Origin: Candidatus Heimdallarchaeota archaeon
GTDB taxonomy: Archaea > Asgardarchaeota > Heimdallarchaeia > Hodarchaeales > Hodarchaeaceae
Direction: 5' to 3'
Length of the DNA: 32,000 bases
NCBI GenBank assembly: GCA_019057635.1
Contig: DXJL01000113.1
Span: forward strand, 83,713-115,712
Position 1 is the first letter of the stretch, and every line of letters begins with the position of its first letter. Position numbers and translations under genes: made by a program. Below the pieces are notes generated by a model. It ran no database searches. It had not been told where the DNA came from and saw only the letters and a list, made by a program, of their open reading frames with translations. Shown one piece after another: positions 5,476 through 32,000 of the stretch.

Positions 5476-5580
5476 GCTGCTGTGGCTTAGTTGGTAGAGC
5501 GACAGACTCGTAAGATTTATAGAAGATCATAATAACTCCGAGATATCTGTTGGCCGTGGGTTCAAGTCCCACCAGCAGCT
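5476..5580 (+). tRNA. tRNA-Thr(CGT) with a canonical 37/38 intron
   Basis: Acceptor GCTGCTG/CAGCAGC plus T. D arm GCTT-AGTTGGT-AGAGC. Anticodon stem ACAGA/TCTGT, loop CTCGTA|A. T arm GTGGG-TTCAAGT-CCCAC. Confidence 0.9.
5513..5544 (+). other. tRNA-Thr intron (32 nt) within a textbook bulge-helix-bulge motif
   Basis: CTCG (positions 32-35) pairs with CGAG near the intron's 3' end, forming the 4-bp central helix. It is flanked by 3-nt bulges TAA and ATA. Cutting after the 2nd bulge nucleotide on each strand yields the mature loop CTCGTAA. Confidence 0.8.
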
Positions 5581-25181: not shown

Positions 25182-26300
25182 ATGATGAATATTCACAGTA
25201 AATCCAGACTTCCGATTTCGGATTGGGGCCTTATTATCATTTTCGTTATGATTTATCCGTTAGCTGTCGGTGTAACTTTAGTTTATTTCTTCTATAGCTA
25301 TAATGATAGGACTATCCAATTACTCTTTTTGAACATCATAATGCTCATATTTCTGGCCGTTTTTCTCTATTTGTATCGATCAGCATTCCATAGACTTGAC
25401 ATATATGCTAAAAAAGTCGATTTCTATCATTTTACTCCCTCTCTGGCCGATTTTTTTATTCATTTGATTAAACAAGTTTATTATGTGCTTTTTCTTGGAT
25501 TTTTGTTTAATTTTATCATTGAATTCTTGATTTCTGATTCTAATATTGATTTAACAGTGTATTTGGGATTCTCTATTGGCACTTCTCTTATTTTAGAGGG
25601 ATTTTTCCTAGTTATTCGAATGCGAAGTAAAATCTCTCTAATAAATACAGCTCAAGAATCTGTAAAAGATGATATCATAAAAGACATAAACCTAAATCAT
25701 CCAGAAAGTGAGAAAATTAGTGAATATCGATTTGCTGATATTCAAGTACCATCCTTATTCCTTTCTGCGGGAGTAACAACCTTTGGCATAAACAATTACA
25801 TTTGTTTAGTTTCTAGATATTTTAATTGGAAATTAAATGACAAAGAATTAATCGCAGTCTTATTACATGAAGTTGGCCACGTCAAGAACAATCACATAAG
25901 GAAATCATATATGATCCTTGGAACAGAAGTAATCTTACGCTCGATTAGGATCTTTATTGTAATAATCGCGCTTCTAGTTTTTTCTCAACAACACGAAAAT
26001 TTTGACATAGATCTCTATTCATTACTTTATCTAAGCTTGATTCTTAGTGTATTCCTTACATCCGCGTTTTTAACATTTTTTCTGAAATATCGTTTCTTTT
26101 TGGGAGAAATCTGGGCTGATGAATATTCTGCAAATAAGGTAGGTGCACTGGAACTAGCAAGTATCTTACGGAAACTTCCAAAACTTATTCCTTCCCCTTT
26201 AGCCTATGATCAATCTTCATTTCTAGGATTCAGAGTAAATTTATTGAGGAATTCGGTAAAAGATCTTCAAGATGTGAATAATCAAAAAATCAATCAATGA
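25182..26300 (+). CDS. membrane-embedded M48-like zinc metalloprotease
   Basis: Multiple TM helices. HExxH in LLHEVGHVKNNH, with a downstream GEIWADEYS acidic motif typical of M48/HtpX-like peptidases. Confidence 0.68.
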   Translation: MMNIHSKSRLPISDWGLIIIFVMIYPLAVGVTLVYFFYSYNDRTIQLLFLNIIMLIFLAVFLYLYRSAFHRLDIYAKKVDFYHFTPSLADFFIHLIKQVYYVLFLGFLFNFIIEFLISDSNIDLTVYLGFSIGTSLILEGFFLVIRMRSKISLINTAQESVKDDIIKDINLNHPESEKISEYRFADIQVPSLFLSAGVTTFGINNYICLVSRYFNWKLNDKELIAVLLHEVGHVKNNHIRKSYMILGTEVILRSIRIFIVIIALLVFSQQHENFDIDLYSLLYLSLILSVFLTSAFLTFFLKYRFFLGEIWADEYSANKVGALELASILRKLPKLIPSPLAYDQSSFLGFRVNLLRNSVKDLQDVNNQKINQ

Positions 26301-27039
26301 TATTGATTTCTACCTCATCTATTCCCATGGATGATAAAAGTGAAGATAAAAATTCTTCAAAGAAACATCCGCCTTTTTCAATCTTGCAGAAATAGCAGTC
26401 GTAGCAATATAGAAAGTACTTGAGATCTTCACGCTTCACATGTTCACCATCTAATTGCATGATTAGTTGATCTATTCGAGCTAAAACGAAATTTCGGCCT
26501 TTTGATAATGCTTGTTTAAAGGATTCGTGATGTTTCTCGAGCAAACGATTCCCAATTTTTCGTCCTAATGTATCCAAGCCTTCCTGTAAGTATTCTTCTT
26601 CTGTGAGCAATCCATCTTCGATTAAAAAAAGGAGAAGAGCGATTTTCTTGCCAAGAGGGAGGAGTATCTCATCTGCGTCTTCAGAAAAACTATCAAAGAT
26701 AGCGAGGTCTACAACCTCACGCTGCCACATTACCTCGGGAAATTTGGTGAAAAACCGTTCTAGAAGATGATCAATTTCTTTTTCACACCATTGGGGATTT
26801 ATTGTTGATTCAATAAAAATCACAAAGAGTAAAGGTTGTTCCCGTTTTTTAAAGAAAAGAGAAACTTTGGACATTTGTAATATATCTATAGCGTCATTCT
26901 CCACTGCAGTAGCGTAATTATATAATGCGCTAATAAGTCCAGATCGAAGGACAATGTCTGTTGAATTTCCAGTCTGATATTTCCTATGAAACAAAACCGT
27001 TCCTGATTCGTGAATACAGAGAAATTCCCTAATTATCAT
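26290..27039 (-). CDS. uncharacterised protein: N-terminal longin/roadblock-like pattern, C-terminal Cys cluster
   Basis: MIIREFLCIHESGTVLFHRKY...LRSGLISALYNYATAV...VSLFFKKREQPLLFVIFIES...EIDHLLERFFTKF follows a beta-beta-alpha-beta-beta-beta-alpha pattern. C-terminus CYDCYFCKIEKGGC. 48 nt downstream of the MutS-like gene, same strand. Confidence 0.5.
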   Translation of the reverse strand: MIIREFLCIHESGTVLFHRKYQTGNSTDIVLRSGLISALYNYATAVENDAIDILQMSKVSLFFKKREQPLLFVIFIESTINPQWCEKEIDHLLERFFTKFPEVMWQREVVDLAIFDSFSEDADEILLPLGKKIALLLFLIEDGLLTEEEYLQEGLDTLGRKIGNRLLEKHHESFKQALSKGRNFVLARIDQLIMQLDGEHVKREDLKYFLYCYDCYFCKIEKGGCFFEEFLSSLLSSMGIDEVEINIID

Positions 27040-27087
27040 TTTTTATCCTCATTTAGCAGAGAATTACTCTTATGTCAAATTAAAACT

Positions 27088-29283
27088 TTAAGAATCAAAC
27101 ACTTCTAAAATATAAGAATAAATTTCCTTTTCAGTGCCTTTCGAAATTTTTTGTAACCGTTGTACAATTAATTCTGGAGTCGATCTTGCATATGTGTAGT
27201 ATTTGGGTGTTCTATCAACAATTAGTTCCAAGTTCTCTGAAAGGCCCTTTGCCTCAATTCCATCAATTCGTAACCCTTCTTTACAATATTTACTGATTTC
27301 TTGAGCTAAATGAGTAACAAAAATACCAACAGAATCGGGAGATCGTCCTAACAAATCTAAAAATGCTGCAATAACCCGTGCAGATGCTCCAGGTTCAGAA
27401 ATACTTTCCATTTCATCAGCTAAGACTAGTCTAGAGTTTGGGCTCATGATCATTTGTGAAAGAGTTCGAAGGGTTGATTCAAAAGCGCCTGCATTTATAT
27501 GTCCAGTTGATTTTCGGTAGTAATGTAATTCTTTGAATCCTCCAATTTTTGCCTCGTAACATGGAACTGGAAGACCCATTTGGCTAAGTATGATAATGAT
27601 TGCAAGGGCTACTAGTAAAGTTGTCTTTCCACCACTGTTTGCTCCTGATAATAGGACAATACGTTCTCCATTAACTCCATTGGCAATTTTTCCAAGTTCT
27701 CCCAAGGCATAGGAGACTGATTCCACTTTCAACTGTCCTTTCAGTTCTTGTTGCGCTAAGAATAGATTTCTACCTTCTTTAACGTATAAACCTGTTCCTT
27801 TCCCTTCAAGAAATTCTGGTAAAGCTAAATTATAGGAACCAGCAAATTTACCAATCATTAAGAGATAATCTAATTCCAGCATACAATGGAGTCCTTCCAT
27901 TGCTACTTCTTCATACCTCTGCAGTTTCTGAGCTAAATCAACTTTTAACTCAAATGCTTTACTTGAGCACTTTTTACGTAAATATTCTGTGAATCGATTT
28001 TTAATCTCATCTTGAGGGTCGATAGGGAATTTTAACTCACGAGGAAAAATACCATTCAAATAATCAGTTTCTTCGTCCAATAAGAAGAGTTTAGAGGATA
28101 GTTCATTCTCAGCCTTATTTATTATTTCTTCTACAGCCAAGTATAATTCATCATCCAAATATTCACGTAAATCCTCACGACTGGAGTTTGCTGAATATCC
28201 TTGCCCTTCAGCAGAGAATCCTTTTAGCAAAGCGAGTACTTTTTCACCTTCCAAATGAATAGTTGTATCTTGTAACATCTTTTCTAATTCATCATTCAAT
28301 GTCAAAAGCACTTCTTCTAAGACCATTTCAAATGATGTCTCTGCTTTTAAAAGGCGTGAAAATTCCTTGTTGAGGCTAGAACTTGGTTCACCTGTTTCTT
28401 CTAAATTTTTTAACTCCTCACCCATGTCAACCAGCATATTGAGATTCATTTCTCCAATATAATTAGCTAACTTATCTGAGGGGAGCTTTTGAAGGAGCGA
28501 TGCAAGTTTAGCAATTGTTACCAGAGTATTTTTGTTCTGGGCAAAAAAAGTCAATGTTTTTTCTGGAAGTATTCTATTAATTTCATGGCGTTGAGATTCA
28601 GAGACAGAAATTATGTTTGGGAGCTCATCATCTAATGTATAATCATTACCAATCCAAATTACTTCATCCGATCCAGCCAGAGTGTCATTAATCTTTTCAT
28701 AATCTTCTATGAATAATATTTCACAATAATTTCCTATTATATTTGAGAGAAGCTCTTTGTAGATGCTTTTATCAGTAGTAGCAACAGCACGCGATGCAGT
28801 ATCAATAGAATCGGAGTGTTCCTTTAATGGAGTTAAATGTCTTAACAGTGCATCATATTCAGTAAGCGAATTTGCGGATTTTTCAATTATTGTGTATAGT
28901 TCTAACCCAAGTCGAGTGATTAGTTGTCGATCAATGATTTTTGCTAATGCTGTAATGGGGAGGGGAAAATATAAGTAAAGTTTTGATCGAGAATAGAAGG
29001 TATTACCAAATTTTGAAATTAAATCTATTATACGATTATATATCAAAATAGTATCTTCAGTTTTTAGAAAATCCTGAATCTGTTCCCCAGTTTCCTGGTA
29101 ATGTAGATTTCGACAAAGGCTGAGGGCAAATCGTTCACCAATTCCATCAATAGAGGAGATCTCGGCAATTCGTGACCCTCTTAGCGCGTTAAGAACAAGA
29201 CTTTCGCTTCCAAAATACGAAACGAGTTTCTTTTCACTGGAAGGGCCAATTCCCCTAATATCACGAAGTTTTATCGCGTTCAA
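27088..29283 (-). CDS. archaeal MutS-like ATPase (MutS domain V only) with an N-terminal helix-hairpin-helix
   Basis: N-terminus IKLRDIRGIGPSSEKKLVSYFGS (HhH). C-terminus LSGANSGGKTTLLVALA (MutS-type Walker A), LVLADEMES (Walker B), FVTHL. No mismatch-binding domain I was recognisable. TTG start. Confidence 0.82.
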   Translation of the reverse strand: MNAIKLRDIRGIGPSSEKKLVSYFGSESLVLNALRGSRIAEISSIDGIGERFALSLCRNLHYQETGEQIQDFLKTEDTILIYNRIIDLISKFGNTFYSRSKLYLYFPLPITALAKIIDRQLITRLGLELYTIIEKSANSLTEYDALLRHLTPLKEHSDSIDTASRAVATTDKSIYKELLSNIIGNYCEILFIEDYEKINDTLAGSDEVIWIGNDYTLDDELPNIISVSESQRHEINRILPEKTLTFFAQNKNTLVTIAKLASLLQKLPSDKLANYIGEMNLNMLVDMGEELKNLEETGEPSSSLNKEFSRLLKAETSFEMVLEEVLLTLNDELEKMLQDTTIHLEGEKVLALLKGFSAEGQGYSANSSREDLREYLDDELYLAVEEIINKAENELSSKLFLLDEETDYLNGIFPRELKFPIDPQDEIKNRFTEYLRKKCSSKAFELKVDLAQKLQRYEEVAMEGLHCMLELDYLLMIGKFAGSYNLALPEFLEGKGTGLYVKEGRNLFLAQQELKGQLKVESVSYALGELGKIANGVNGERIVLLSGANSGGKTTLLVALAIIIILSQMGLPVPCYEAKIGGFKELHYYRKSTGHINAGAFESTLRTLSQMIMSPNSRLVLADEMESISEPGASARVIAAFLDLLGRSPDSVGIFVTHLAQEISKYCKEGLRIDGIEAKGLSENLELIVDRTPKYYTYARSTPELIVQRLQKISKGTEKEIYSYILEVFDS

Positions 29284-29355: not shown

Positions 29356-30267
29356 TTAAATTTTTGTGATTTCCTGCGCATTTGCTAGTTCAATAAACTG
29401 GTTTACCTCATTAAAGGAACAATGATCTGAGTAGGGAAAATAATGGACGTCTAATCGCTTTGAAACTAATTCAACAGCCCAGCCTGTTGGTGAGATCCTC
29501 AAGGAATTAATCAAGCGGGCTTCTGTTCGCTGATCTAATCCAGTGAGATTTTCTACCCTCCTTCTACTCTCAACACAAATTCCAGAGTCTGGATTATCAG
29601 TAAAAATGTCCCAACCTCCACCTATTTCTTTATAAATCTGAACTTTTTTTTCAGGAGCGAAAATTTTCACCTTCAAGGCATCACTTATTGTTTTCAATAG
29701 TTTTTCCTTCCCTATTTGGTACGCAGCAATCCAGATCTCCTTGTGAGGATAATTACCATCCGCTAACATAAGGGATAATATTTCGGAGATTAAATCCTTA
29801 CGAGAGGGAAAATTATACCTTGGCATGTCACCATAGGTATAATCTACCCATAAATGATCCGCACCTTGTATAAGCTCTAATTCATCTAAAATTGGTTTAC
29901 CAAGGCGAAAATCACCAGTATAGACTTCTTTCCTATTTTCCGATGATTCGATCACAAACATCAAACTACCTAAACAATGGTTTGCATCTACCGCATGTAT
30001 CACGAAATCATCAAAATCTAGTGATTGGTTTGTATCTATAAGTAAGCATTTCTCTTTTGGAATTCGGTGAAGAACTTTAAGGACTGCTGCAGTTTCTTTC
30101 GAGCAAACTATCATCGCGTCTTGGGAAGAAAGCACAGATTTTATTCCTGTAGTGTGGTCACTGTGAGCGTGGGATAGAAAAAAATAATCTGATGATGTTG
30201 CTAGTTTCTTTCTTTGACGAAATGGAAATTCATCAAAATAACTATTGGCTAATTTAGAAAAAACCAT
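29356..30267 (-). CDS. SNM1/PSO2/Artemis-type (DRMBL) beta-CASP DNA nuclease
   Basis: FLSHAHSDHTTG (HxHxDH), VDANHCLGSLMFVIE...YTGDFRLGK and C-terminal FPYSDHCSFNEVNQFI match the SNM1-family hallmark motifs DANHCPG, TGDFR and YSEHSS. Confidence 0.78.
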   Translation of the reverse strand: MVFSKLANSYFDEFPFRQRKKLATSSDYFFLSHAHSDHTTGIKSVLSSQDAMIVCSKETAAVLKVLHRIPKEKCLLIDTNQSLDFDDFVIHAVDANHCLGSLMFVIESSENRKEVYTGDFRLGKPILDELELIQGADHLWVDYTYGDMPRYNFPSRKDLISEILSLMLADGNYPHKEIWIAAYQIGKEKLLKTISDALKVKIFAPEKKVQIYKEIGGGWDIFTDNPDSGICVESRRRVENLTGLDQRTEARLINSLRISPTGWAVELVSKRLDVHYFPYSDHCSFNEVNQFIELANAQEITKI

Positions 30268-30461
30268 TGAACTACCCCGAGAAAACTGTAATCCTAAAAT
30301 CTTCTCTTCTTATTCAACAAATTACAAAATACAGAGGAATTAATTAATATTGGGATAAAGGTTTGGAGGTTTCTTTAATGAGGTACCTGTTAAATATTCT
30401 GGAAAATCATTAGGATTATGTTCAAACCGTAAAACGCATCAACAAATTCGTGGGAATAGAG

Positions 30462-30479
30462 CAAAAATAAATAGAAAAG
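30462..30479 (-). terminator. candidate oligo-T terminator for the 5S transcript
   Basis: The minus strand reads CTTTTCTATTTATTTTTG about 35 nt downstream of the 3' flanking helix strand. It is preceded by the small hairpin GCG-AAAAA-CGC. Confidence 0.3.
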
Positions 30480-30511
30480 TGTTTGTATCTCAATGCGCTT
30501 TTTCGCTAGGG

Positions 30512-30518
30512 GATATTG
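30512..30518 (-). repeat. 3' flanking arm (CAATATC on the minus strand) of the inverted repeat bracketing the permuted 5S
   Basis: Perfect 7-nt complement of the 5' arm at 30646-30652. Directly follows CCGG-AAA. Confidence 0.7.
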
Positions 30519-30642
30519 TTTCCGGGTTCGGAATGAGACCGGGTGTGACTCAGGCCCTTTGGCCGAAGAACCTTCAGCTTTCCGATTTTCCCGTAGGCGC
30601 GAGCACAACAGTACAGATCAGAACGGAGCCTGACTTAACTTT
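30519..30642 (-). rRNA. 5S rRNA, circularly permuted gene order (3' half - GTT loop - 5' half)
   Basis: Minus strand: AAA-GTTAAG-TCAGGCTCC-GTT-CTGAT-CTGTACTG-TTGTGC-TCGC-GCCTAC-GGGAAA-ATCGG-AAA-GCTGAAG-GTT-CTTCGGC-CAAA-GGGCCTGA-GTCACACCCGGTCTCATTCCGAACCCGG-AAA. All 5S helices (I-V) and loops can be drawn. Helix III/loop C matches the archaeal consensus block as I remember it. GC-rich island in AT-rich DNA. No credible ORF. Confidence 0.78.
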
Positions 30643-30645
30643 CGG

Positions 30646-30652
30646 CAATATC
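30646..30652 (-). repeat. 5' flanking arm (GATATTG on the minus strand) of the inverted repeat bracketing the permuted 5S
   Basis: Pairs with 30512-30518. Followed by CCG-AAA-GTTAAG. Stacked on an 8-bp leader hairpin (TCTCACAA/TTGTGAGA, 30651-30690). Confidence 0.7.
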
Positions 30653-30721
30653 TCACAAGTTATTTCAGCGCAAGATGTCTGTTTGTGAGATTACAAACCA
30701 GTTGGGGCAATTTCAAGAGGC

Positions 30722-30733
30722 TTTATATATTTA
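30722..30733 (-). promoter_or_regulatory. candidate TATA box for the 5S precursor
   Basis: The minus strand reads TAAATATATAAA about 75 nt upstream of the 5' flanking helix, leaving room for a structured leader of about 45 nt. Confidence 0.3.
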
Positions 30734-30878: not shown

Positions 30879-31721
30879 ATGCAATTGGATAATTGGAACC
30901 TTGAATACTTAAAAATTGTTTCAGAGTTAGGACTGAACATTGAGGAAGATATTCACTCTGCAAAGGAATTAGAATCGATTTTATTGACGAATCGCCCATT
31001 CAGATCACAAAATTTCTTAGACAGATTAAATCAGTTATTAAAACAACCAAATTTAATTGTTGGATCAGGTCCCTCTCTCGAAACAGATTTAAACAGTTTT
31101 AAGCAACATTTTAATTTAGTAAATTTAGTAACTATTGCTGTCGACGGAAGTTGTTCTTTATTCCGCCAATTACAGATAATTCCAAACATTCTAGTAACGG
31201 ATTTAGATGGTGAATGGTCAGCAATTCGTTGGGCAATTTCACACGGAGCTATTACTCTTATACATGCACATGGAGACAACGAATATCTCATTAAACGATT
31301 CTTTGAAGATAATGAAAATTTATCAGAAAAAACTAATGTTTGGGGAACTACCCAAAATATGTTAACCACCAAGTTATTTAATTTCGGTGGATTCACAGAT
31401 GGAGATAGAGCAATTTTTCTATCCTTTCACTTTCAATCACCTCTCATTGGATTGATGGGGTTTGATTTTGGGGAAATCATTGGCAAATATAGTACATTGA
31501 ATCCCACGATAACGAAGGATCCTATTAAAAAACGAAAGAAGTTCAAGATAGCTCTATCACTTCTTGCTGCGTATTATCATGATCACAAAGGGGTTCGGTT
31601 CAATTTAACTTCTTCGGGTGAGGAAATACCTGGATTCCCAAGATTATCTCTCCAGGAATTTAAAACCGAGTTAATTGAATGGAATAAGACGCAAAGTAAA
31701 GAGGAGTCTCCCAAACATTAA
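30879..31721 (+). CDS. mptE: MptE-like 6-hydroxymethyl-7,8-dihydropterin pyrophosphokinase (DUF115 family)
   Basis: LIVGSGPSLETDL...TIAVDGSCSLFRQLQIIPNILVTDLDGEW...LIHAHGDN matches the MptE/DUF115 motif order. Confidence 0.75.
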   Translation: MQLDNWNLEYLKIVSELGLNIEEDIHSAKELESILLTNRPFRSQNFLDRLNQLLKQPNLIVGSGPSLETDLNSFKQHFNLVNLVTIAVDGSCSLFRQLQIIPNILVTDLDGEWSAIRWAISHGAITLIHAHGDNEYLIKRFFEDNENLSEKTNVWGTTQNMLTTKLFNFGGFTDGDRAIFLSFHFQSPLIGLMGFDFGEIIGKYSTLNPTITKDPIKKRKKFKIALSLLAAYYHDHKGVRFNLTSSGEEIPGFPRLSLQEFKTELIEWNKTQSKEESPKH

Positions 31722-32000
31722 CTTTAACCTCCTCAATATTACATTCATTATTTAATGACTGAAGAAATTCTTTCATACTAATGGCAACAGTCTTAGCTAA
31801 AAATTCAGCTGTTACATTTTTGCATTTGAGTAACTTTACTTCGTCTTGTGGAAGGGAATAAAAACGGCTCCCGAACTGAATCTCATAGTTGTTTCCGTTT
31901 TCTTTAATTTTAAGGTCTTTATTCATGCTAGGAAGTAGTGTATAATGATCCCATGTAGAAATAATATTACTAAGAGATTCATCTAATGAAAGAAAATTAA
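31660..32000 (-). CDS. 6-pyruvoyl-tetrahydropterin synthase/QueD-family protein; 5' end beyond the window
   Basis: The frame stays open upstream of the track's ATG (31926) to base 32000 (..LDESLSNIISTWDHYTLLPS-MNKD..). C-terminus NVTAEFLAKTVAISMKEFL...IEEVKVNVWETP resembles the PTPS nPTaEnlA...V.V.Et pattern. Overlaps the convergent mptE-like end by 62 nt. Confidence 0.6.
   Translation of the reverse strand, partial: NFLSLDESLSNIISTWDHYTLLPSMNKDLKIKENGNNYEIQFGSRFYSLPQDEVKLLKCKNVTAEFLAKTVAISMKEFLQSLNNECNIEEVKVNVWETPLYFASYSIQLTRF

What the first reader, a model, noticed from the sequence alone, without database searches (positions are those of the whole stretch)
30512..30652. BHB-like splice motif formed by 5S leader and trailer, predicting excision and circularisation
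The permuted body is bracketed by a perfect 7-bp inverted repeat: GATATTG in the leader and CAATATC in the trailer. Moving inward, the leader reads GATATTG-CCG-AAA-GTT and the trailer reads AAC-C-CGG-AAA-CAATATC. That gives an outer helix, an AAA bulge on the trailer strand, a short central helix (CCG:CGG), an AAA bulge on the leader strand, and an inner helix (GTT:AAC). This is the strand topology of a bulge-helix-bulge substrate of the archaeal tRNA-splicing endonuclease. The central helix is 3 bp plus one unpaired C rather than the canonical 4 bp. The tRNA-Thr intron in this window has a canonical BHB that is cut after the 2nd bulge nucleotide. Applying the same rule here gives the junction CCGGAA|AGTTAAG. 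The RNA could stay circular, or it could be reopened at the GTT loop to regenerate canonical helix I ends. Alternatively, the 7-bp helix may simply act as a new terminal stem of a linear permuted 5S.
Basis: partly seen in the sequence, partly recalled or inferred. Interest (0 to 1): 0.85.

Follow-up and report, generated by a model that had tools for sequence, protein, structure and literature searches.

The report
Permuted 5S rRNA with splice-like ends
This archaeon, a close relative of the eukaryote ancestor, encodes its 5S ribosomal RNA in scrambled order, and the conserved flanks look built to be cut and rejoined by the tRNA-splicing enzymes into a normal, probably circular, 5S RNA.

Summary
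On the minus strand, GATATTG (30652-30646) and CAATATC (30518-30512) bracket a circularly permuted 5S rRNA gene. Helix I is closed by a GUU loop and the gene ends lie between helices III and II.

I collected 25 distinct homologues from Hodarchaeales/Heimdall-group Asgard archaea. All have the same architecture.
- The leader-trailer helix covaries strongly: 6 of 9 pairs change on both sides.
- A 3-nt bulge (AAA, once AAU) follows it on the trailer strand.
- The central helix is 4 positions, CYGR:YCGG, not 3 bp plus an unpaired C. It carries an A·C mismatch in this genome and is Watson-Crick or G·U in 14 of 25.

The tRNA-Thr intron in this window is cut 2 nt 3' of its central helix. That rule here gives CCCGGAA|GUUAAG, a 120-nt product with the universal 5S sequence.

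Rfam misses all these genes, and a published report could not find 5S in complete Heimdallarchaeum genomes.

Cleavage and ligation are inferred from conservation and precedent (Thermoproteus SRP RNA, permuted tRNAs). There is no RNA evidence. Whether the product stays circular is open.

The parts
30721..30732 (-). TATA-like promoter box AAATATATAAAG, about 25-30 nt upstream of the leader hairpin
   Evidence: Read directly. An A/T-rich TATA-like box sits at the same distance in all relatives with upstream sequence. The transcription start itself is inferred.
30679..30699 (-). Leader hairpin GGUUUGU-AAUCUC-ACAAACAG
   Evidence: A local hairpin at this place recurs with different sequences in relatives: GUUUGU/ACAAAC, UUGGUG/CACCAA, UGUAG/CUACA, UUAGU/ACUAA.
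30667..30672 (-). Leader strand (UGCGCU) of a distal leader-trailer helix; pairs with 30499-30494
   Evidence: Formed in the fold of leader plus trailer. The equivalent helix has other sequences in relatives: ACGCC/GGCGU, UGCGCCAAU/AUUAGGCGCA, GUUACGC/GCGUAAC.
30646..30654 (-). 5' arm GAGAUAUUG of the leader-trailer helix (7 perfect bp 30652-30646, then A·C, then G-C)
   Evidence: Covariation: 6 of 9 pairs change on both sides.
30642..30645 (-). Leader strand CCGA of the 4-position central helix; pairs with CCGG at 30525-30522, the fourth position being A·C here
   Evidence: CYGR is conserved in 25 of 25 although it lies outside the mature 5S. Pair counts are CG 25; CG 22 and UG 3; GC 25; GC 11, GU 2, AU 1 and A·C 11.
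30640..30641 (-). AA of the relaxed 5' bulge; predicted 5' cut between 30640 and 30639 (CCGAAA|GUUAAG)
   Evidence: Rule taken from the tRNA-Thr intron of this window. The cut position is inferred.
30520..30639 (-). Permuted 5S rRNA body, 120 nt. Order: GUUAAG, helix II 3' strand, helices V/IV, helix I 3' strand, GUU loop, helix I 5' strand, loop A, helix II 5' strand, helix III/loop C, ending ...CCCGGAA
   Evidence: Rfam partial hits in reversed order. Rotation analysis. All 5S helices are 96-100% paired, with compensatory changes.
30562..30578 (-). Helix I closed as a hairpin: GCUGAAG-GUU-CUUCGGC (loop 30571-30569), joining what are the 3' and 5' ends of an ordinary 5S
   Evidence: Helix I covaries (GCUGAG/CUCGGC, GCUGGG/CCCGGC, AACGGGU/GCCCGUU). 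The loop varies in sequence and is 3-6 nt long.
30522..30525 (-). Trailer strand CCGG of the central helix; also the 3' strand of helix III in the mature fold
   Evidence: Where the two helix III strands differ (L009, L037, L042) the leader 4-mer fits this strand better, with 4 pairs against 3 or 2 (sequences).
30519..30521 (-). 3' bulge AAA; predicted 3' cut between 30520 and 30519 (CCCGGAA|A)
   Evidence: The bulge is 3 nt in 25 of 25. The third, discarded nucleotide is U in L037, which was found with a pattern that did not specify the junction.
30510..30518 (-). 3' arm CAAUAUCCC of the leader-trailer helix
30494..30499 (-). Trailer strand (AGCGCA) of the distal leader-trailer helix
30463..30479 (-). 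T-rich tract CUUUUCUAUUUAUUUUU, the likely archaeal terminator
   Evidence: Read directly. A T-run follows the trailer in all relatives.

Best explanation
The locus is a stand-alone transcription unit for a circularly permuted 5S rRNA. It has a TATA box, a leader of about 55-60 nt, a 120-nt permuted body, a trailer of about 40 nt and a T-run.

Proposed steps:
1. In the primary transcript the leader and trailer pair into a long interrupted processing stem.
2. The innermost part of that stem is a relaxed bulge-helix-bulge. It has a 7-9 bp outer helix, a 3-nt bulge (AAA) on the trailer strand, a 4-position central helix (leader CCGA with trailer CCGG), and AA(G) on the leader strand before a short inner helix GUU:AAC.
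3. The archaeal RNA-splicing endonuclease (EndA) cuts each strand 2 nt 3' of the central helix, as it must in the tRNA-Thr intron of the same genome.
4. The RtcB ligase then joins ...CCCGGAA to GUUAAG....
5. This restores the universal 5S sequence across loop B and gives a 120-nt covalently closed 5S rRNA whose helix I is capped by a 3-nt loop.
6. It most likely stays circular in the ribosome.

Shown: the permutation, the conserved and covarying helix, the conserved bulge and central 4-mer, and the in-silico junction. Inferred: cleavage, ligation and the final topology.
For: 1. The permutation is real: Rfam pieces lie in reversed order and the best rotation is at the helix I loop.

2. There are 25 distinct homologues, all with the same ends.
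- They come from a genome-wide pattern scan (17 Asgard loci, one hit in each of three complete chromosomes).
- They also come from a metagenome scan that left the junction unspecified.
- They also come from gene-neighbourhood look-ups.

3. The outer helix has 6 of 9 pairs with compensatory changes and one column pair shows 5 pair types. 92% of cells are paired, no shuffle of 500 reaches this, and slid controls collapse.

4. The leader 4-mer CYGR lies outside the mature RNA yet is conserved 25 of 25. All its changes are transitions that keep pairing with YCGG, including an A-U in L042. In L009, L037 and L042 it fits the trailer strand better than the other CCGG-like strand.

5. The third bulge nucleotide, predicted to be discarded, is the one that varies (AAU in L037).

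6. The cut rule read from the window's own tRNA-Thr intron gives exactly CGGAA|GUUAAG, the Rfam consensus, and 120 nt.

7. A BHB-forced fold is as stable as, or more stable than, a fold keeping helix III in most sequences.

8. Asgard archaea, including a Heimdall genome, are reported to carry the (alpha-beta)2 EndA with the L1 loop. That enzyme type cleaves relaxed motifs (HBh', hBH, BHL) (PMC5829648).

9. Precedent: the permuted SRP RNA gene of Thermoproteus is processed by the splicing endonuclease and circularised (PMC4731332).

10. No canonical-order copy of this 5S sequence type exists in 241 million metagenome records.

11. Helix I loops are tiny and variable, with no conserved feature for re-opening.
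Against: - No RNA data were available: no junction reads, no end mapping.
- The central helix has no clean double compensatory change across lineages. In this genome its fourth position is an A·C mismatch.
- The 5' half is not a canonical 3-nt bulge. The inner helix GUU:AAC is built from invariant 5S nucleotides, so it cannot be tested, and it has a mismatch in L042.
- Forming the motif requires unfolding helix III, which does show one compensatory change. The unconstrained minimum-energy fold pairs the leader CCG with the other CCGG strand.
- The leader CCGGAA is also a direct repeat of the trailer CCGGAA. It could therefore be a relic of a duplication rather than a selected pairing partner.
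- My first scan imposed AAG and AAA, so only the loci found by neighbourhood or by the second pattern test bulge conservation independently.
- One metagenome contig (L007) lacks the 5' arm.
- Permuted mitochondrial 5S rRNAs work as linear molecules (PMC4267664).
- Published work states that circularisation is known for archaeal 16S and 23S but not 5S (PMC12918454).
Confidence: 0.6

Rival explanations
1. Linear permuted 5S. The leader-trailer helices are an ordinary processing stem, or a permanent extra stem at loop B. Other nucleases trim the ends and the mature RNA remains a linear, permuted molecule held together by base pairing, with no ligation.
For: - Covariation proves the helix but not what happens to it.
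- Helix I is stably closed, so a nick in loop B would be tolerated structurally.
- Brown-algal mitochondrial 5S rRNAs are permuted in the final product (PMC4267664).
- The 5' half of the motif is non-canonical.
- The minimum-energy fold does not form the central helix with the trailer.
Against: - It does not explain why a 4-nt leader element outside the mature RNA is conserved as a pairing partner of YCGG.
- It does not explain why the trailer bulge is always exactly 3 nt with only the third nucleotide free to vary.
- It does not explain why the splicing cut rule restores the universal sequence and a length of 120 nt.
- A 9-bp or longer stem left at loop B would protrude where ribosomal proteins bind helices II-III (general knowledge of 5S-uL18 contacts, not tested here).
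Confidence: 0.2
2. Circular intermediate, linear product. The splicing machinery excises and circularises the RNA as above. A second endonuclease then opens the helix I loop, regenerating an ordinary linear 5S with ends at helix I, as in permuted tRNA genes.
For: - Permuted tRNA genes of Cyanidioschyzon are expressed through a circular intermediate that is re-opened (cited in PMC4267664).
- Archaeal 16S and 23S circular intermediates are generally re-linearised (PMC12918454).
Against: - The loops closing helix I are only 3-6 nt and share no sequence (GUU, UUU, AUU, ACUU, AAUUA, UUUCGG).
- They therefore offer no conserved recognition feature.
- No 5S-specific opening activity is known.
- Thermoproteus SRP RNA stays circular (PMC4731332).
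Confidence: 0.12
3. Decaying pseudogene or chance inverted repeat with no function.
For: - Rfam does not call the gene at its gathering score.
- Some assemblies show indels at the locus (L001, L002, L005, L007).
Against: - The body is 92-95% conserved where flanking protein-coding DNA is 75-80% identical.
- All helices covary.
- The gene has its own TATA box and T-run in every lineage.
- It occurs in one copy per complete chromosome.
- No canonical-order counterpart was found.
Confidence: 0.02

Closest known systems
Permuted SRP RNA gene of Thermoproteus tenax (Plagens et al. 2015, eLife, PMC4731332)
   Same: - A universal structured RNA is encoded in circularly permuted order in an archaeal genome and missed by standard gene finders.
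- The new termini are brought together by flanking pairing.
[quoted passage not shown]
- The mechanism proposed here is the same.
   Different: - The RNA here is 5S rRNA, not SRP RNA.
- The lineage is Asgard (Hodarchaeales/Heimdall group), not Thermoproteales.
- The motif here is relaxed on its 5' half.
- Circularisation is experimentally shown there and only inferred here.
Circular pre-16S and pre-23S rRNA intermediates made at bulge-helix-bulge motifs in processing stems; circularly permuted 23S of Pyrococcus furiosus (PMC7758197, PMC12918454)
   Same: The leader and trailer form a long processing stem with a bulge-helix-bulge near its base, and EndA plus a ligase give a circular rRNA.
   Different: - Those genes are collinear, so circularisation is not needed to restore the RNA's order.
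- The literature read here says this route is known for 16S and 23S but not 5S.
- Here the gene itself is permuted and ligation would rebuild an internal loop of the mature RNA.
Circularly permuted tRNA genes (Cyanidioschyzon merolae, Soma et al. 2007, as cited in PMC4267664; archaeal examples are recalled from my own knowledge)
   Same: The 3' half is encoded before the 5' half, the natural ends are joined by a short linker, and a bulge-helix-bulge at the new ends is processed via a circular RNA.
   Different: - tRNA circles are re-opened by RNase P and tRNase Z at the acceptor stem.
- No equivalent activity or recognition feature is evident for the helix I loop here.
Permuted mitochondrial 5S rRNA of brown algae (Rfam mtPerm-5S; Valach et al. 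2014, PMC4267664)
   Same: A 5S rRNA whose ends are not at helix I and which ordinary 5S models miss.
   Different: - It is organellar.
- Helix I is replaced by a 5' hairpin and the ends lie at the alpha/gamma junction.
- The final RNA is linear and permuted, with no flanking helix or splice-like motif.
- Here the break is in loop B, between helices III and II, and all five helices are retained.

Membership tests
5S rRNA (Rfam RF00001) | Scores at or above the family's gathering threshold (38 bits) | tested here: not met
   As encoded, only two sub-threshold pieces are found, 20.8 and 18.3 bits. None of 18 homologous loci is called. The cause is the permutation. The rotated sequence could not be given to the covariance-model tool.
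5S rRNA (Rfam RF00001) | Three-domain fold with helices I-V supported by covariation | tested here: met
   Helices I, II, III, IV and V are 96-100% paired across 16 to 25 sequences, with compensatory changes in each.
5S rRNA (Rfam RF00001) | Conserved loop C/helix III, GUUAAG and loop E sequence signatures | tested here: met
   ACCCGGUCUCAUUCCGAACCCGGAA matches model positions 27-51 almost exactly. The rotated body has 77 of 120 identities to the consensus, about 7 sd above shuffles.
5S rRNA (Rfam RF00001) | 5' and 3' ends paired in helix I (collinear gene order) | tested here: not met
   Helix I is a closed hairpin with a GUU loop at 30578-30562, and the gene ends lie in loop B.
Bulge-helix-bulge substrates of the archaeal splicing endonuclease | Central helix of 4 bp | tested here: inconclusive
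   There are four stacked positions, CYGR:YCGG. Three are always paired. The fourth is G-C 11, G·U 2, A-U 1 and A·C 11 of 25, and A·C in this window. There is no clean double compensatory change.
Bulge-helix-bulge substrates of the archaeal splicing endonuclease | 3-nt bulge on the 3' strand flanked by an outer helix | tested here: met
   AAA in 24 and AAU in 1 of 25. It lies next to a covarying 7-9 bp helix whose two closing pairs, U-A and G-C, are invariant.
Bulge-helix-bulge substrates of the archaeal splicing endonuclease | 3-nt bulge on the 5' strand flanked by an inner helix | tested here: inconclusive
   The leader has AA followed by G. If G pairs with C the bulge is 2 nt; if not, it is 3 nt facing one C. 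The inner helix GUU:AAC is invariant, so covariation is uninformative, and it has a mismatch in L042. It fits the relaxed classes hBH or BHL.
Bulge-helix-bulge substrates of the archaeal splicing endonuclease | An endonuclease able to cut relaxed motifs is present in the lineage | not tested
   Not searched in these genomes. The literature reports the (alpha-beta)2 EndA with the L1 loop in Asgard archaea, including Heimdall AB_125 (PMC5829648).
Bulge-helix-bulge substrates of the archaeal splicing endonuclease | Actual cleavage at the two bulges | not testable with these tools
   Needs an in vitro EndA assay or RNA end mapping.
Permuted RNA genes repaired by splicing-type circularisation (permuted tRNAs, Thermoproteus SRP RNA) | Gene-level circular permutation with the natural ends joined by a short linker | tested here: met
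   The linker is 3-6 nt in all relatives.
Permuted RNA genes repaired by splicing-type circularisation (permuted tRNAs, Thermoproteus SRP RNA) | Predicted ligation restores the canonical sequence and length | tested here: met
   The cut rule from the tRNA-Thr intron gives CCCGGAA|GUUAAG and 120 nt, identical to the consensus CggAAguUAAG.
Permuted RNA genes repaired by splicing-type circularisation (permuted tRNAs, Thermoproteus SRP RNA) | Circular RNA or junction reads observed | not testable with these tools
   No read-level RNA data were available. A search of assembled metagenome contigs for the junction found nothing, which is uninformative for RNA.
mtPerm-5S (brown-algal mitochondrial permuted 5S) | Helix I replaced by a 5' hairpin, ends at the alpha/gamma junction, organellar genome | tested here: not met
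   Here helix I is retained, the ends are in loop B of the beta domain, and the genome is archaeal.

The most novel reading that the evidence does not exclude
Ribosomes of Hodarchaeales and related Heimdall-group Asgard archaea, the closest known archaeal relatives of eukaryotes, may contain a covalently closed circular 5S rRNA. It would be made from a permuted gene by the tRNA-splicing endonuclease and RtcB. This would be the first 5S rRNA whose biogenesis depends on splicing-type circularisation, and it would explain why 5S genes are reported missing from these genomes. In one sub-lineage (L043, L044) the same gene also carries a 30-nt insertion with its own splice-like motif. That would be an intron in a 5S rRNA gene.
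Probability: 0.45. Interest if true: 0.9.

Novelty: new variant of a known kind. Interest (0 to 1): 0.85.

Why it matters
- 5S rRNA is universal, and its gene is normally among the easiest to find. Yet the authors of complete Heimdallarchaeum genomes wrote that 5S genes 'could not be predicted' (PMC8813620). A permuted gene invisible to the Rfam model explains such gaps, at least for the Hodarchaeales-type genomes examined here. It also gives a concrete search pattern and alignment for annotating them.
- It would extend splicing-type circularisation from 16S/23S intermediates, tRNAs and one SRP RNA to 5S rRNA. Ligation would be obligatory for rebuilding the molecule.
- It would do so in the archaeal order currently placed closest to eukaryotes.
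- The prediction is directly testable: a single 25-nt junction sequence to look for in existing metatranscriptomes.
- It affects genome-completeness scoring that counts 5S rRNA. It also removes spurious 'hypothetical protein' calls laid over the gene (69-93 aa ORFs in the window and in public contigs).

Tried and rejected
- **Rfam at gathering threshold:** no 5S in the window or in 18 related loci. Only the permissive scan showed the two reversed pieces.
- **ARAGORN:** missed the intron-containing tRNA-Thr. Rfam found it.
- **Sigma-70/terminator scan:** not applicable to archaea, so ignored.
It gave no canonical-order twin and no assembled circular junction. It cannot speak to RNA.
- **Thermodynamics:**
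  - The motif-forming fold lies 3-8 kcal/mol above the minimum-energy fold.
  - It is about equal to, or better than, the fold that keeps helix III.
  - This is not decisive either way.
- **Are contig breaks inside the 5S in several MAGs evidence of multiple copies?**
  - For YT1_021 the two contigs are the two sides of one locus: a tRNA lies 5.47 kb downstream, as in the window.
  - Multi-copy is therefore not supported, though not excluded.
- **Literature:** ten searches found no report of a permuted or circular archaeal 5S rRNA.
Full report
**What is in the sequence**

The finding lies on the minus strand. Read 5'->3' from 30654 to 30510, it is GAGAUAUUG-CCGA-AA-GUUAAG ... CGAAC-CCGG-AAA-CAAUAUCCC.
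- At this spacing they are expected 0.03 times per shuffled window.

The 120 nt between the bulges are a 5S rRNA in circularly permuted order.
- The permissive Rfam scan places model positions 27-51 (helix III/loop C, ACCCGGUCUCAUUCCGAACCCGGAA) downstream of positions ~52-120. Both pieces fall below the gathering score.
- Helix I is a closed hairpin, GCUGAAG-GUU-CUUCGGC, at 30578-30562.
- Rotating the body at that loop gives 77 of 120 identities to the Rfam consensus. The score is about 7 sd above shuffles, and this is the best of all 120 rotations.
- The unit has a TATA-like box (30732-30721) and a T-run (30479-30463).

**Whose genome it is**
- The neighbouring MptE-like protein has its best matches, 71% identity, in Hodarchaeales MAGs.
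- The window is 96% identical over 7.6 kb to a contig of 'Heimdallarchaeota archaeon B3_Heim'.

**Relatives**

Three independent routes gave homologues.
1. Contigs encoding relatives of the neighbouring protein. Here the order Lactamase_B_2, then 5S, then MptE-like is conserved down to 45-51% protein identity.
2. One scan of 185,579 species genomes for GUUAAG lying about 100 nt upstream of CGAACYCGGAAA.
   - It returned 17 Asgard loci plus 9 bacterial chance hits.
   - There was exactly one hit in each of three complete Heimdall-group chromosomes.
3. A metagenome scan anchored only on the closed helix I, loop A and helix II, leaving the junction unspecified. It returned 7 contigs, all permuted in the same way.

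After removing duplicates, 25 distinct sequences were aligned (A2). None of 18 such loci is recognised by Rfam at its gathering score.

**Comparative test of the motif**
- **Leader-trailer helix.**
  - It is 9 positions long and 92% of cells are paired.
  - Six of the nine pairs change on both sides, and one column pair shows U-A, C-G, G-C, U·G and A-U.
  - No shuffle of 500 reaches the observed values, and sliding the partner by one column halves the pairing.
  - The two pairs next to the bulge, U-A and G-C, never vary.
- **Trailer bulge.** It is always 3 nt. It is AAA, except AAU in L037, a locus found without specifying the junction.
- **Leader 4-mer.**
  - The 4-mer after the arm is CCGA, CCGG or CUGG. 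It lies outside the mature RNA yet is conserved in 25 of 25.
  - It can always pair with the trailer's CCGG or UCGG.
  - The fourth position is G-C 11 times, G·U twice, A-U once (L042) and A·C 11 times, including this window.
  - The central helix is therefore 4 positions, not 3 bp plus an unpaired C.
- **Which CCGG strand it pairs with.**
  - CCGG is a palindrome, so the leader could in principle pair with either strand of helix III.
  - In the three lineages where those strands differ (L009, L037, L042) it fits the trailer strand better, with 4 pairs against 3 or 2.
- **Weak points.**
  - No pair of the central helix shows a clean double change between lineages.
  - The inner helix GUU:AAC consists of invariant 5S nucleotides.
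  - The 5' bulge is 2 nt if G pairs with C.

The motif is best described as a relaxed bulge-helix-bulge with a canonical 3' half.

**Where it would be cut**
- The tRNA-Thr(CGU) gene at 5476-5580 carries a 32-nt intron in a canonical motif. The stem is ACAGA:UCUGU, the central helix is CUCG:CGAG, and the bulges are UAA and AUA.
- The correct anticodon loop CUCGUAA requires cuts after the second bulge nucleotide, which is 2 nt 3' of each central-helix strand.
- Applied here, the rule gives CCGAAA|GUUAAG in the leader and CCCGGAA|A in the trailer.
- Ligation yields ...CGAACCCGGAA-GUUAAGUC.... This is identical to the 5S consensus CggAAguUAAG and gives a 120-nt product.
- The only bulge nucleotide seen to vary is the one predicted to be discarded.

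**Rest of the precursor**
- With the body replaced by a hairpin, leader and trailer fold into an extended interrupted duplex in every lineage. The sequences differ between lineages (window UGCGCU/AGCGCA; others ACGCC/GGCGU, UGCGCCAAU/AUUAGGCGCA, GUUACGC/GCGUAAC).
- A local leader hairpin also recurs with covarying sequences.
- In the L009/L037 lineage the leader and trailer are reduced to little more than the arm, so the arm plus motif is the common core.
- This resembles the processing stems of archaeal 16S and 23S rRNA.

**Energetics**
- Forming the motif competes with helix III.
- Forced folds put the motif-forming conformer within 3-8 kcal/mol of the minimum. It is usually as stable as, or more stable than, the conformer that keeps helix III plus the arms.
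- This neither supports nor refutes the model.

**Mechanism proposed**
1. The leader and trailer pair.
2. The splicing endonuclease cuts both strands.
3. RtcB joins the 2',3'-cyclic phosphate end at A30520 to the 5'-OH of G30639.
4. The result is a 120-nt circle with an intact loop B and a capped helix I.

Support from the literature:
- Asgard archaea are reported to have the (alpha-beta)2 endonuclease with the L1 loop. That class cuts relaxed HBh', hBH and BHL motifs (PMC5829648).
- The permuted SRP RNA of Thermoproteus is processed in exactly this way and stays circular (PMC4731332).

I put 0.6 on excision plus ligation with a circular product, 0.12 on later re-opening at helix I, 0.2 on a linear permuted product and 0.02 on a non-functional locus. 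The helix I loops are 3-6 nt and unrelated in sequence, which argues mildly against a dedicated re-opening step.

**Is it the organism's 5S?**
- The body is 92-95% conserved where flanking coding DNA is 75-80% identical.
- All helices covary.
- There is one copy per complete chromosome by the scan pattern.
- No canonical-order version of this sequence type exists in 241 million metagenome records, which include the samples these contigs came from.
- I could not scan whole genomes for a divergent canonical 5S.

**Novelty**
- Ten full-text searches found no report of a permuted or circular archaeal 5S rRNA.
- A 2026 paper states that circularisation applies to archaeal 16S and 23S 'but not 5S'.
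- The authors of complete Heimdallarchaeum genomes could not predict 5S genes.
- The kind of system is known: a permuted RNA gene repaired by the splicing machinery. The RNA, the lineage and the relaxed motif are new.

**Origin (inference)**
- In 11 of 25 sequences the leader ends with CCGGAA, a direct repeat of the trailer's CCGGAA. This is also the native 5S sequence that precedes GUUAAG.
- A tandem duplication cut at these points would yield such a terminal redundancy.
- Because CCGG is a palindrome, the two copies can pair and would present AA on each strand as bulges, giving a ready-made splice motif.

Noticed in passing
L043:2660-2811 and L044:2659-2810 (+ strand of the loci): In this sub-lineage the permuted 5S carries a 30-nt insertion between CAUUCCGAA and CCCGG. 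It has its own splice-like motif: UCCG-AA|A, then a hairpin, then CGGG-AA|C. The 5' half is canonical and is formed in the minimum-energy fold of L044. Removing the insertion by the same cut rule restores CAUUCCGAACCCGG exactly. It is absent from the related L046. This may be an intron in a 5S rRNA gene.
   Followed up: partly
L043, L044, L046 versus window and L001-L008, L042, L045: The 5S unit is inverted relative to the conserved neighbours (Lactamase_B_2 and MptE-like) in L043, L044 and L046. It still sits in the same intergenic space.
   Followed up: no
L001:5640-5676 region; L002; L005; L007 (all minus strand of the loci): Metagenome assemblies of the same populations differ by indels at this locus. 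L001 has a 37-nt tandem duplication of the 3' end of the 5S plus arm. L002 has a 7-nt trailer deletion. L005 has a 6-nt duplication (CTGTTG) in helix IV. L007 has a 16-nt deletion that removes the 5' arm. These could be assembly artefacts or real alleles; this is unresolved.
   Followed up: partly
L003/L031, L006, L008, L010, L013, L020 (contig ends): Contigs of several MAGs end inside or next to the 5S unit. For YT1_021 the two contigs are the two sides of one locus. L008 and L020, from one MAG, differ by a single base in the 5S (GGGAAAAUC against GGGAACAUC), which suggests strain variation or a second copy.
   Followed up: partly
window 5476-5580 (+): tRNA-Thr(CGU) has a 32-nt intron at position 37/38 in a canonical bulge-helix-bulge. 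Rfam finds it at 61.7 bits but ARAGORN misses it.
   Followed up: yes
window 30390-30608 (-), 30479-30688 (+); L001:5662-5904; L003:2-184; L006:3-191; L008:3-284: ORFs of 60-93 aa overlap the 5S unit. In the public contigs they were called as protein genes with no Pfam hit. They are most likely spurious calls over an unannotated RNA gene.
   Followed up: partly
window 30698-30720 (-): The stretch between the TATA box and the leader hairpin (CCUCUUGAAAUUGCCCCAACUGG; core CUCUUGAA) is unusually conserved across distant relatives, including L004, L012, L014 and L033. It may be a promoter or initiator element, or part of the transcript. The transcription start is not mapped.
   Followed up: no
L009:3294-3379 (+): In the most divergent lineage a weak tRNA match (34 bits, 86 nt, possibly intron-containing) lies about 100 nt upstream of the permuted 5S.
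   Followed up: no
window 26290-29283 and 29356-30267 (-), 30879-31926: The gene neighbourhood around the 5S is conserved across the order. It comprises a 731-aa MutS domain V protein, a 249-aa protein with no Pfam match, a DRMBL-type metallo-beta-lactamase, an MptE-like kinase and a PTPS fragment.
   Followed up: partly
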